DNA from: Escherichia coli
GTDB taxonomy: Bacteria; Pseudomonadota; Gammaproteobacteria; Enterobacterales; Enterobacteriaceae
Strand: one strand, 5' to 3'
NCBI RefSeq assembly: GCF_030384885.1
Contig: NZ_CP128613.1
DNA length: 64,000 nt
Both the position numbers and the translations under genes were made by a program. The notes beneath the pieces were generated by a model. The model had not been told where the DNA came from, did no database searches, and saw nothing but the letters and a program-made list of their open reading frames with translations. This document shows positions 40,717-42,274 of this stretch, one piece after another; within the stretch, counting starts at the first letter, position 1; each line of letters begins with the position of its first letter.

Positions 40717-41319
40717 TTATACCGCCTCAGTCAATTCAGGCTGAGGCGTTTCTACTCCCTCCGCATGAATCAACACCAAACCCGGATGATGCCACAAACT
40801 GGCTGGTGTTACGGTTTTACGCTCCCACGGAATCGAACCTAAAAACCAGAATTTCCAGAAAGTGAGTTTTGCGTTCGGATTGCTATTTAGCAGTTCTCCA
40901 AACGTCTCTATTTCACCCACCGGAATACATAACGCCTCTTTATAAATATCAAAAACGAATTTTGAGCAGAACTGGCGGGAAGATTCGTATTTAAAGCCGG
41001 TGTGGTAGAGCTTATGCAACCGTCCGGGGACCTTTTCGACCAGAGCAAGTTTTTGCTCTGCGGTTAAACCTCCTGCGAGGCGGCGAACACCGTAGCGTTG
41101 ATCGGTCGACCGTTCAATAAATCGTGACAAAGTTGTGATTGTGGAGAGCGGAACTCGACTCTCCGCAACCAGGTAATCATCACCGTCATGTCCGATGATT
41201 ATCCCCACATGGTTGCTCCAGCATTTCGAGGCTGCAGAGATTTGCCCAAACAGGCGAGCACCGATGCAGGTAAAAACAATATCACCGGTTTCATATTTAG
41301 CTGGGTAATTTATTTTCAC
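40717..41319 (-). CDS. yebB: Uncharacterised protein YebB (200 aa)
   Basis: [46 protein letters not shown]...; convergent with ruvC with 1 nt between the stop codons. Confidence 0.88.
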
Positions 41320-41412
41320 TATATCAATCCATTATTTATATATAAAACAGCATCTATCTTTCGTGATGGTAAAGCATTAGCATTGTATTATAATAATGAC
41401 AAGGAATGTTTT

Positions 41413-42237
41413 ATGCGGTTATTTATTAATGTGATAATTATAGTTTCGATCAGTCAATGCGTGAATGTATTTGCTCAAGATAATGTCATCCGCTATCCCT
41501 GGCGATATGGACGTATTTCTTTAAATGAGAATAATGAGTTTGTGCCTCAAATTATTCATATGCGTGATGATATCTACGGCGTGGGTGAAGCTGGTGCAAG
41601 CCTTAACGATGCGAGAATGGCGCAAAGTGGTGTCGCCGTGAGGCTTAGCGTTATACAGCAGGGGCAGGTGGTGAATGCTTTACTGGATTTCTACAATAGC
41701 AATAATCAACCTGCTTATATCTTTGAAGGTGGTTTGATGCCTTGCAATAAAGCCTTTGACATCACAACAAGCAACATTGTCCTTGATGGGATGTGTGGAA
41801 TTTATGATGGGGTCGATGGCTGGCAAGTTATTCCTGCGGGTGATCATTATAAAGAATCATTTTCACTCACTCAGGCTTTTGAATTTCTGCCGGGAAAACA
41901 TCATTATAAAATTAATGCCGGAAGTTTTATCATCAGAGTCGGGGATGATATTTTTGCAAGAGAGGACGCCGAAAGCATTCTTTTTGATTTGATTAACTGG
42001 CGATATGGCTATGTGCTAAAAAGTTATGAAAGGGTGTCGAAGTGGGATTTAATGGCAGGGACTTATGTACTGCCTGAATACTCGGGGGATAAAAGAATGG
42101 ATGAGTATCGAATTTACTCAAACCAGGTGTCGATTGATCTTAATGGTGACGAGTTAGCACATACGGAGTCCTATCAGTGGCGAATTGATAGCGGAATGAT
42201 CCCGGAAAAATTCAGCGTTCAGGAACTCGCTGAATGA
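41413..42237 (+). CDS. Hypothetical secreted/periplasmic protein (274 aa), function unknown; first gene of an AT-rich islet
   Basis: Track ORF 41188-42237 trimmed to the ATG at 41413 because the upstream part overlaps yebB on the opposite strand and 41413 has an RBS (AAGGAA); N-terminus MRLFINVIIIVSISQCVNVFA|QDN looks like a Sec signal peptide; hand-counted G+C about 38-40%; no recognised family. Confidence 0.65.
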   Translation: MRLFINVIIIVSISQCVNVFAQDNVIRYPWRYGRISLNENNEFVPQIIHMRDDIYGVGEAGASLNDARMAQSGVAVRLSVIQQGQVVNALLDFYNSNNQPAYIFEGGLMPCNKAFDITTSNIVLDGMCGIYDGVDGWQVIPAGDHYKESFSLTQAFEFLPGKHHYKINAGSFIIRVGDDIFAREDAESILFDLINWRYGYVLKSYERVSKWDLMAGTYVLPEYSGDKRMDEYRIYSNQVSIDLNGDELAHTESYQWRIDSGMIPEKFSVQELAE

Positions 42238-42274
42238 ATCGTCCTCTACCTGCTTGCCAGATACAGAGGCGCGG

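What the first reader, a model, noticed from the sequence alone, without database searches (positions are those of the whole stretch)
41413..42237. ORF A: 274-aa predicted exported protein of unknown function
The N-terminus MRLFINVIIIVSISQCVNVFA|QDN has the n/h/c organisation of a Sec signal peptide with a VFA-Q cleavage site (not a lipobox). The mature roughly 250-aa region has no motif I recognise (no obvious hydrolase catalytic signature) and is rich in Tyr, Asn, Asp and Gly. The track's longer version (from 41188) overlaps yebB on the opposite strand and lacks an RBS, so the ATG at 41413 is preferred.
Basis: inference. Interest (0 to 1): 0.6.

Follow-up and report, generated by a model that had tools for sequence, protein, structure and literature searches.

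The report
Orphan T6SS anti-metallopeptidase immunity gene
The 274-residue exported protein is real, and it belongs to an unnamed family that neutralises zinc-protease toxins injected by rival bacteria through type VI secretion; here it sits alone, without toxin or weapon, in a rare islet beside ruvA, so it most likely acts as a stand-alone shield.

Summary
The ORF at 41413-42237 is confirmed as a real, selected gene. It is intact in five lineages and has dN/dS of 0.22-0.28. Orthologues support the 41413 ATG, a conserved AAGGA ribosome-binding site and a Sec-type leader.

It is not without relatives. An exhaustive HMMER search found about 300-aa enterobacterial homologues. In 10 of 11 cassettes these lie directly downstream of an M35/aspzincin (HExxH) metallopeptidase gene; the eleventh keeps a toxin remnant. 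VgrG precedes the toxin wherever enough flank is available.

In E. coli PAR the tested M35 toxin-immunity locus (PMC10673891) holds two family members. One of them, RS15265, aligns with ORF A at E=2e-13.

In the window ORF A is an orphan. The 64-kb window has no M35 gene, and the T6SS site used in strain PAR is empty in this strain. The gene lies in a low-GC 1.6-kb islet (41334-42949) found in 19 of 5,426 complete E. coli genomes and also in E. fergusonii.

Verdict: a new member of a known kind, an orphan T6SS immunity gene. Protection and binding mode are inferred, not shown.

The parts
41413..42237 (+). ORF A coding sequence (274 aa plus stop): an orphan member of the T6SS M35-toxin immunity family
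   Evidence: ORF and translation. The family HMM scores 1.7e-82 here and 1.7e-78 for the PAR gene RS15265. BLASTP against RS15265 gives 25% identity over 244 aa, E=1.9e-13. dN/dS is 0.22-0.28.
41401..41405 (+). Shine-Dalgarno AAGGA, 7 nt upstream of the ATG
   Evidence: Read directly from the sequence. AAGG(A) is conserved at this spacing in all five lineages.
41413..41475 (+). Sec-type signal peptide (residues 1-21, predicted cleavage VFA|QDN)
   Evidence: Rule-based n/h/c features. Equivalent leaders occur in all homologues. The AF2 model has a helix at residues 2-16 followed by a low-confidence linker. No SignalP run was available.
41485..41940 (+). Beta-sandwich core (about residues 25-176), resembling the pro-domain part of the AsaP1 aspzincin pro-enzyme
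41743..41796 (+). Segment bounded by the Cys111 (41743-41745) and Cys128 (41794-41796) codons; a likely periplasmic disulfide
   Evidence: Both cysteines are invariant in close homologues. C111 is invariant family-wide, and a second invariant Cys 17-21 residues later occurs in the remote subfamily. DsbA dependence of the analogous immunity protein PA0261 is reported in PMC6899460. The disulfide itself is inferred.
41334..42949 (.). Low-GC accessory islet (ORF A plus ORF B) that replaces the 183-bp yobI segment of K-12
   Evidence: Junctions come from BLAST against K-12. GC is 33-46% against 50-55% in the flanks. The islet is present in 19 of 5,426 complete E. coli genomes. The same slot is occupied in E. 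fergusonii and in other Enterobacteriaceae.
42275..42859 (+). ORF B (194 aa), a co-resident membrane protein of unknown role; the second slot of the islet varies between lineages
   Evidence: PGAP gene WP_001054410.1. It is 45% identical to the gene downstream of the 49% ORF A orthologue. Its family is tiny. It is replaced by an unrelated gene in L019 and absent in L003. A C-terminal TM segment lies at residues 153-175.
40717..41319 (-). yebB (permuted papain-like enzyme), the divergently transcribed neighbour; its allele travels with the islet
   Evidence: NCBIfam NF008547, E=8e-115. It is 81% identical to K-12 yebB, against 95-97% for ruvC and ruvA. It is context only, not shown to be functionally linked.

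Best explanation
ORF A encodes a Sec-exported periplasmic protein of an unnamed enterobacterial family. The usual job of this family is to act as the cognate immunity protein of M35 (aspzincin, HExxH) zinc-metallopeptidase toxins, which are delivered into the periplasm of neighbouring cells on the VgrG spike of a type VI secretion system.

In this genome the gene is an orphan. It has no adjacent toxin, and the T6SS site used by the toxin-armed strain PAR is empty. It is maintained under purifying selection in a small, foreign-looking islet between yebB and ruvA.

The most likely function is defensive. After export and disulfide formation, its beta-sandwich domain binds an incoming M35 toxin from a competitor and blocks its active site, much as the covalently attached propeptide of the aspzincin AsaP1 keeps that enzyme inactive.

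**Shown:** the gene is real and selected, the family membership, the family's genomic coupling to VgrG-M35 toxin genes, the fold resemblance, and the orphan status at this locus.

**Inferred:** export, the disulfide, the binding mode, which toxin(s) it neutralises, and that it protects at all.
For: **Family and its coupling to toxin genes**
- Exhaustive HMMER search found 19 relatives, aligned as A3.
- Across independent loci, 10 of 11 cassettes with a family member have an M35-like gene immediately upstream, often overlapping it. The eleventh (L009) retains a 35-aa toxin C-terminal remnant, E=4.6e-6.
- VgrG lies directly upstream in L006, L010, L015 (twice), L020 and L024. ClpV/TssH or PAAR are also nearby.

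**The partner genes are M35 peptidases**
- They share an invariant STLCHExSHF motif.
- The partner profile hits PDB 1g12 at E=3e-5 and AsaP1 at E=4.5e-3.
- Pfam gives weak hits to Aspzincin_M35 and Tox-MPTase2.
- Newer PGAP runs name the gene 'M35 family metalloendopeptidase'.

**Experimental anchor**
- In E. coli PAR, M35(PAR) AKO63_2955 kills E. coli, and co-expression of the downstream AKO63_2956 rescues it (PMC10673891).
- Both PAR cassettes have a family member in that downstream position: RS15265 (E=1.7e-78) and RS15245 (E=3.3e-53). ORF A aligns with RS15265 at E=1.9e-13.

**Periplasmic logic**
- Leaders are present in all members, and the cysteine pair is conserved.
- In the analogous Tpe-Tpi pair, VgrG2b/PA0261 (PMC6899460), the toxin acts in the periplasm. 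PA0261 needs its signal peptide and DsbA, and it neutralises the toxin by complex formation.

**Fold**
- ORF A model: pLDDT 73, pTM 0.67.
- AFDB matches include lysine-specific metalloendopeptidase pro-enzymes, matched over only part of their length.

**Orphan status and selection**
- No M35 ORF in the 64-kb window or in any of the five yebB-slot lineages.
- The T6SS site is empty in strain 2013C-4282, against the occupied site in PAR.
- dN/dS is 0.22-0.28 and the gene is intact everywhere.
- Orphan or extra immunity copies occur elsewhere in the family (L009, L023, L006).
Against: - ORF A is only 22-30% identical to cassette-linked members. Immunity specificity is usually narrow, so no cognate toxin can be named.
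- The yebB-slot subfamily has a fixed chromosomal position in several genera rather than a T6SS or mobile-element context. That would also fit a domesticated, non-immunity role.
- The mapping of AKO63_2955/2956 onto RS15260/RS15265 is inferred from the frameshifted VgrG. It was not read from a sequence in the paper.
- Only one T6SS site of strain 2013C-4282 was inspected. A toxin elsewhere in the genome is not excluded.
- The immunity-linker-toxin fusion model was of low confidence (pLDDT 62, pTM 0.43). It aligned to AsaP1 over only 156 of 293 residues, so the propeptide-like docking mode has no direct support.
- There is no sequence-level similarity to any PDB chain, AsaP1 included.
- No expression data were available, and no dedicated signal-peptide predictor.
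Confidence: 0.62

Rival explanations
1. Domesticated paralogue. The yebB-slot subfamility descends from M35-toxin immunity proteins but now serves the cell itself. It could, for example, inhibit or chaperone an endogenous or host metalloprotease in the periplasm, and would have no role in T6SS conflicts.
For: - It occupies the same chromosomal slot in Escherichia, Pseudocitrobacter-like and other Enterobacteriaceae.
- It diverges strongly from cassette members, at 22-30% identity.
- Purifying selection is maintained without any linked toxin.
Against: - It is rare in E. coli (19 of 5,426 genomes) and lies in low-GC DNA. That pattern suits an accessory conflict gene better than a housekeeping function.
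- Its dN/dS is 3-5 times higher than that of neighbouring core genes.
- Orphan immunity copies of the same family are seen decaying or persisting in T6SS islands.
- No endogenous M35 peptidase is known to me in E. coli (own knowledge, not tested).
Confidence: 0.2
2. Functional partner of YebB. ORF A and the divergently transcribed yebB (a permuted papain-like enzyme) form a unit, since the divergent yebB allele travels with the islet.
For: - The two start codons are 93 bp apart and share one AT-rich control region.
- The islet-linked yebB allele is 81% identical to K-12 yebB, while the flanking genes are 95-97% identical.
- The adjacency is conserved in all five lineages.
Against: - yebB is present without ORF A in K-12 and in most E. 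coli genomes.
- YebB has no leader and is under strong constraint like a core gene (dN/dS 0.05), whereas ORF A is exported.
- Every relative of ORF A outside this slot pairs with an M35 gene, not with a YebB-like gene.
- Allele linkage is expected from simple co-transfer by homologous recombination.
Confidence: 0.06
3. A non-functional relic: a leftover immunity gene that is drifting towards loss.
For: It is absent from more than 99% of E. coli genomes. It has no cognate toxin nearby. PGAP annotates it only as hypothetical.
Against: - It is intact, with no internal stops, in five lineages down to 49% identity.
- dN/dS is 0.22-0.28 with dS up to 0.73.
- The start codon, SD, leader and cysteine pair are all conserved.
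Confidence: 0.05

Closest known systems
E. coli PAR T6SS M35 toxin-immunity pair (AKO63_2955 / AKO63_2956; PMC10673891)
   Same: It belongs to the same protein family by profile and by pairwise alignment. It has the same Sec-type leader and the same core motifs and cysteine pair.
   Different: ORF A is only 25% identical and 34 aa shorter, lacking the extra Cys-containing insert in the C-terminal half. It has no toxin or VgrG next to it and lies at a housekeeping locus. Neutralising activity has been shown for the PAR gene only.
Tpe-Tpi family: P. aeruginosa VgrG2b C-terminal metallopeptidase and its immunity protein PA0261 (PMC6899460)
   Same: The logic is the same: a periplasm-acting T6SS zinc-metallopeptidase toxin, and a periplasmic immunity protein that needs its signal peptide, has conserved cysteines and depends on DsbA, and neutralises by complex formation.
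   Different: Homology of ORF A to PA0261 could not be tested because no sequence was available in the tools. Enterobacterial PA0261 homologues are reported to be lipoproteins, whereas ORF A and its relatives have no lipobox. The VgrG2b toxin domain is fused to VgrG, while the toxins paired with this family are separate genes.
Propeptide of the aspzincin AsaP1 (PDB 2x3a; Bogdanovic et al., FEBS Lett 2016, cited)
   Different: The AsaP1 propeptide is covalently attached and acts in cis on its own enzyme. ORF A is a separate gene product that would act in trans on a foreign enzyme. No sequence similarity is detectable, and the binding mode is not established.
Orphan T6SS immunity genes (general phenomenon; for example the reviews and studies found)
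   Same: It is an immunity-family gene kept without its effector, plausibly giving protection against non-kin attackers. The same family shows orphan or extra copies inside T6SS islands (L009, L023).
   Different: Orphan immunity genes are usually described within T6SS auxiliary clusters, arrays or mobile elements. This one occupies a fixed slot between yebB and ruvA across several genera.

Membership tests
T6SS M35-toxin immunity family (AKO63_2956-like; no Pfam or NCBIfam model) | Significant sequence homology to the experimentally tested member | tested here: met
   BLASTP of ORF A against PAR RS15265 gives 25% identity over 244 aa, E=1.9e-13. The family HMM scores 1.7e-78 for RS15265 and 1.7e-82 for ORF A. 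The mapping of RS15265 to AKO63_2956 is inferred from gene order.
T6SS M35-toxin immunity family (AKO63_2956-like; no Pfam or NCBIfam model) | Gene immediately downstream of an M35 metallopeptidase toxin gene in a VgrG/PAAR context | tested here: not met
   There is no M35-like ORF in the 64-kb window or in any yebB-slot lineage, and no significant toxin remnant upstream (E=2.4). Hence it is an orphan member.
T6SS M35-toxin immunity family (AKO63_2956-like; no Pfam or NCBIfam model) | N-terminal export signal placing the protein in the periplasm | tested here: inconclusive
   Rule-based features are all present and are conserved across the family. No dedicated predictor or experiment was available.
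T6SS M35-toxin immunity family (AKO63_2956-like; no Pfam or NCBIfam model) | Neutralises an M35 toxin | not testable with these tools
   This needs co-expression or competition assays. It has been shown only for the PAR pair (PMC10673891).
Tpe-Tpi (VgrG2b C-terminal domain / PA0261) immunity family | Sequence homology to PA0261 | not tested
   The PA0261 sequence could not be obtained with the tools. The toxin profile A4 did not hit any VgrG2b structure in the PDB sequence search.
Tpe-Tpi (VgrG2b C-terminal domain / PA0261) immunity family | Enterobacterial members are lipoproteins with a lipobox Cys | tested here: not met
   The ORF A leader ends VNVFA|Q. Cys16 lies in ISQC, which is not a lipobox. 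Relatives likewise have type-I style cleavage motifs. The lipoprotein statement comes from PMC6899460.
Aspzincin (M35) pro-domain, as in AsaP1 | Fold similarity to the pro-domain | tested here: met
Aspzincin (M35) pro-domain, as in AsaP1 | Covalently linked N-terminal to an M35 catalytic domain in one polypeptide | tested here: not met
   ORF A ends at residue 274 with no HExxH motif or catalytic domain. In the cassettes the toxin is a separate upstream gene.
Aspzincin (M35) pro-domain, as in AsaP1 | Detectable sequence homology to known pro-domains | tested here: not met
   The family profile against all PDB sequences at E<=10 returns only an unrelated chance hit.

The most novel reading that the evidence does not exclude
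The immunity proteins of T6SS M35 toxins, ORF A included, are exapted zymogen pro-domains. On this reading, the inhibitory beta-sandwich that keeps aspzincins inactive in cis was split off into a separate exported gene that inhibits the toxin in trans. The yebB-slot version would be a vertically kept, possibly broad-spectrum 'anti-M35 shield' in lineages such as E. fergusonii that do not carry the weapon at that locus.
Probability: 0.3. Interest if true: 0.6.

Novelty: new member of a known kind. Interest (0 to 1): 0.4.

Why it matters
**Annotation.** The result turns a 'hypothetical protein' into a testable prediction. That annotation is also mis-started in RefSeq, and some relatives are mis-named 'transposase'. 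ORF A is predicted to be a periplasmic inhibitor of injected M35 metallopeptidase toxins. One such toxin cassette alone occurs in 197 of 5,426 complete E. coli genomes.

**Family definition.** The family, its motifs and its toxin partner are defined here. That would allow a Pfam or NCBIfam model for both the immunity gene and the toxin.

**Biology.** If the pro-domain resemblance reflects mechanism or ancestry, it would show how a T6SS immunity protein can arise from a protease's own safety catch. It would also explain how immunity can persist as a stand-alone defence at a core-genome locus.

Tried and rejected
1. **yobI as a remnant of the ORF A leader.** The K-12 small gene yobI has the same position and orientation and a loosely similar peptide. 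There is no DNA similarity beyond chance: score 20 against a shuffle mean of 20.3.
2. **A toxin remnant upstream of ORF A.** '...ELALYYNNDKECF' looked by eye like the toxin C-termini '...ELYFQLSDKEC'. It is not significant, E=2.4.
3. **Standard libraries.** Pfam, NCBIfam, PADLOC and PHROGs on ORF A and ORF B returned nothing.
4. **PDB sequence search with the family profile.** Nothing meaningful.
5. **Pattern scan of reference genomes.**
   - A tighter alignment gave only two loci.
6. **L006, L007 and L008 against E. coli genomes.** No match, so they come from other Enterobacterales.
7. **Immunity-linker-toxin fusion model to test propeptide-like docking.** Confidence was low (pLDDT 62, pTM 0.43), and it superposed on AsaP1 over one domain only. 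The result is inconclusive for docking. It was still useful as a control, showing that the ORF A match to 2x3a is to the non-catalytic part.
8. **P0008 as a relative.** Dropped as a repeat-protein artefact.
9. **Hydrolase or enzyme reading.** No catalytic motif is present, and the beta-sandwich fold matches are to inhibitors and binding modules.

Full report
**Where the window comes from**

The segment is 100% identical to the chromosome of E. coli strain 2013C-4282, NZ_CP027579.1. There PGAP annotates aspS, nudB, yebC, ruvC and yebB (on the minus strand). It then annotates two 'hypothetical proteins', followed by ruvA, ruvB and znuBCA.

- PGAP uses the upstream ATG at 41188, giving 349 aa. 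That form overlaps yebB, and PGAP shortens yebB to 187 aa.
- Homologues at 91%, 71% and 49% identity are 273-274 aa and start at the aligned Met.
- In the 71% and 49% orthologues the reading frame closes 5-7 codons upstream of that Met. An AAGG(A) Shine-Dalgarno 7-8 nt upstream is conserved in all five lineages. The 41413 start is therefore right.
- The gene is intact in every lineage. Its dN/dS is 0.22-0.28 in four comparisons with dS up to 0.73, against 0.05 for yebB and 0.09 for ruvA. It is a real, selected gene that evolves faster than core genes.
- The leader has a basic n-region, a hydrophobic core (mean KD 2.17), V at -3 and A at -1, and no lipobox. The mature part has no TM-like segment. 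I had no SignalP, so export is well supported but not proven.
- Tyr, Asn and Asp are enriched; Gly hardly is.

**The locus**

- Compared with K-12, the 1,616 bp at 41334-42949 replace a 183-bp segment that carries the 21-codon gene yobI. There is no detectable similarity between the two.
- The islet has 33-46% GC, against 50-55% in the flanks.
- It occurs in only 19 of 5,426 complete E. coli genomes, always on the chromosome.
- The same slot holds ORF A in assemblies that carry a protein NCBI names as E. fergusonii, together with ORF B.
- A metagenomic relative has ORF A at 91% plus an unrelated 228-aa membrane protein.
- The 71% lineage has no second gene, and its protein cluster includes Pseudocitrobacter corydidari.
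- The 49% lineage has an ORF B homologue at 45% identity.
- The islet-linked yebB allele is only 81% identical to K-12 yebB, whereas ruvC and ruvA are 95-97% identical. This suggests that the whole yebB-ORF A-ORF B haplotype moves by homologous recombination through the conserved flanks.

**What it is**

Pfam, NCBIfam, PADLOC, PHROGs and PDB sequences recognise nothing. The word-indexed search found only six close clusters.

The exhaustive HMMER search of 1.84 billion representatives found further proteins of about 300 aa at 22-37% identity. They share a leader and the motifs YGYG, FxNxS, C..F.ITT.NI.LDYLG..C, W..IPAG, AYEFLPGKH.Y.IGS and IRTNQV.I.I.G. An AFDB fold search independently recovered many uncharacterised 260-315-aa proteins from E. 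coli, Salmonella, Citrobacter, Enterobacter, Buttiauxella and others.

**Genomic context of the relatives**

This is the decisive evidence. I scored all fetched loci with two HMMs, one for the ORF A family and one for the upstream partner.

- Ten of eleven independent cassettes have the partner gene immediately upstream of the family member, often overlapping it.
- The eleventh (L009) keeps a 35-aa remnant of the partner's C-terminus (E=4.6e-6) and lies between a VgrG fragment and a PAAR gene.
- Wherever enough flank exists, a VgrG gene directly precedes the partner: L006, L010, L015 (twice), L020 and L024. TssH/ClpV or PAAR are nearby.
- L023 has one partner gene followed by three family members in tandem.

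**The partner is an M35/aspzincin metallopeptidase**

- It has an invariant STLCHExSHF motif, plus GGxGTxD and NAYNxExYF.
- Its profile hits peptidyl-Lys metalloendopeptidase 1g12 at E=3e-5 and AsaP1 2x3a at E=4.5e-3.
- Pfam gives weak hits to Aspzincin_M35 and Tox-MPTase2.
- Recent PGAP runs name the gene 'M35 family metalloendopeptidase'.

**Experimental anchor**

PMC10673891 studied the E. coli PAR locus VgrG (AKO63_2953), DUF2345 (2954), M35 toxin (2955) and the downstream gene (2956). It reports that the M35 toxin kills E. coli and is neutralised by the protein encoded downstream. The constructs were pET22b-AKO63_2955 and pET22b-AKO63_2955-2956.

In the RefSeq record of strain PAR the T6SS cluster lies between the tRNA-Met genes next to mltA and a phosphoglycerate dehydrogenase gene. 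It holds two cassettes.

| Cassette | VgrG | Toxin (partner HMM) | Family member (ORF A family HMM) |
|---|---|---|---|
| First | intact | RS15240, E=3.9e-67 | RS15245, truncated, E=3.3e-53 |
| Second | frameshifted | RS15260, E=7.2e-59 | RS15265, E=1.7e-78 |

The frameshifted VgrG fits the paper's split into VgrG plus DUF2345. ORF A aligns with RS15265 over 244 residues at E=1.9e-13.

Whichever cassette the paper used, the gene after the toxin is a member of the ORF A family. The exact tag mapping is my inference. That particular cassette is present in 197 of 5,426 E. coli genomes.

**How it probably works**

Wood et al. (PMC6899460) give the precedent for a T6SS zinc-metallopeptidase toxin.

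- VgrG2b-Cter is toxic only in the periplasm.
- Its immunity protein PA0261 needs its signal peptide.
- PA0261 binds the toxin.
- PA0261 depends on DsbA and has conserved cysteines.

ORF A and all its relatives have leaders and a conserved cysteine pair, C111 and C128 in ORF A.

The mature M35 enzymes 1g12 and 1eb6 are absent from that list. They appear strongly once a toxin domain is included in the query. The match is therefore to the non-catalytic part of 2x3a, that is, the propeptide. The title of the structure paper says this propeptide inhibits the enzyme intramolecularly (reference seen; the paper itself was not available). AFDB matches to lysine-specific metalloendopeptidase pro-enzymes over part of their length agree with this.

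I therefore propose that the exported beta-sandwich binds the incoming toxin and blocks its active site.

I tried to test the docking mode with a paired immunity-linker-toxin fusion of the PAR pair. The model was of low confidence (pLDDT 62, pTM 0.43) and aligned to AsaP1 over only 156 of 293 residues. The binding mode remains an inference.

**Orphan status**

- No M35-like ORF exists in the 64-kb window or in the flanks of any yebB-slot lineage.
- No significant toxin remnant lies upstream of ORF A.
- In strain 2013C-4282 the site that carries the M35-armed T6SS in strain PAR is empty: phosphoglycerate dehydrogenase, three tRNA-Met genes and mltA are contiguous.
- I did not scan the rest of that genome.

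**Comparison with what is known, and novelty**

The closest known entity is the PAR immunity gene, which belongs to the same family. The closest analogous system is Tpe-Tpi. Its enterobacterial immunity proteins are lipoproteins, unlike this family.

Orphan immunity genes are a known phenomenon. Three things are unusual here: the fixed housekeeping-locus position across genera, the absence of any database model for the family, and the pro-domain-like fold.

I rate it a new member of a known kind, of moderate interest. The main rival is a domesticated paralogue with a T6SS-independent role. The 22-30% identity to cassette members and the conserved chromosomal slot leave that reading open.

Noticed in passing
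window 42959-42976: GCTGGATATCTATCCAGC is a CTG-N10-CAG palindrome of the LexA/SOS-box type, about 50 nt upstream of the ruvA start (43027). It lies just inside the point where homology to K-12 resumes (42950), so the islet insertion leaves the ruvAB control region intact. The terminator scan flagged it only because of its stem and T-run.
   Followed up: partly
window 41334-42949 versus K-12 (L005 1816-1881): In K-12 the small-protein gene yobI (21 aa) occupies the 183 bp that the islet replaces, in the same orientation as ORF A. No sequence relationship was found, so the two are alternative contents of one slot.
   Followed up: yes
window 40717-41319 (yebB): The yebB allele next to the islet is only 81% identical to K-12 yebB, while ruvC and ruvA are 95-97% identical. 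ruvC is 100% identical to the E. fergusonii-type locus L018. This suggests a recombinational import spanning yebB and the islet.
   Followed up: partly
window 41188-41412 and 41281-41319 (RefSeq NZ_CP027579.1 annotation): PGAP starts ORF A 75 codons too early (349 aa, overlapping yebB) and shortens yebB to 187 aa. The 200-aa yebB matches the NCBIfam model end to end, and orthologues close the upstream ORF A frame.
   Followed up: yes
window 42275-42859 (ORF B): This is a 194-aa membrane protein with a Cys-containing loop and a C-terminal TM segment. Its family is tiny (E. coli, E. fergusonii and a few metagenomic relatives). Its dN/dS against E. fergusonii is 0.72, based on few changes. The slot it occupies is variable between lineages. 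It could be a second orphan immunity gene, but nothing links it to a toxin.
   Followed up: partly
L023 920-4840: One M35 toxin gene is followed by three ORF A family genes in tandem, an immunity array. L006 and L015 also carry extra truncated family copies after the first one.
   Followed up: partly
L009 2629-3595: A 35-aa remnant of the M35 toxin C-terminus (E=4.6e-6) lies directly before an intact family member. The locus also has a VgrG C-terminal fragment, another putative effector-immunity pair and a PAAR gene. It is a clear case of an orphaned immunity gene after toxin loss.
   Followed up: yes
Database entries WP_330986211.1 (P0013) and UniProt A0A2A6PZT3: Members of the ORF A family are named 'transposase' in NCBI and UniProt. 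This is probably annotation carry-over from neighbouring IS elements.
   Followed up: no
L015 (E. coli PAR 2963001-3010000): The PAR T6SS cluster carries two successive VgrG-M35-immunity cassettes. The second VgrG is frameshifted, and the first immunity gene is truncated to 203 aa, with a further fragment after it.
   Followed up: partly
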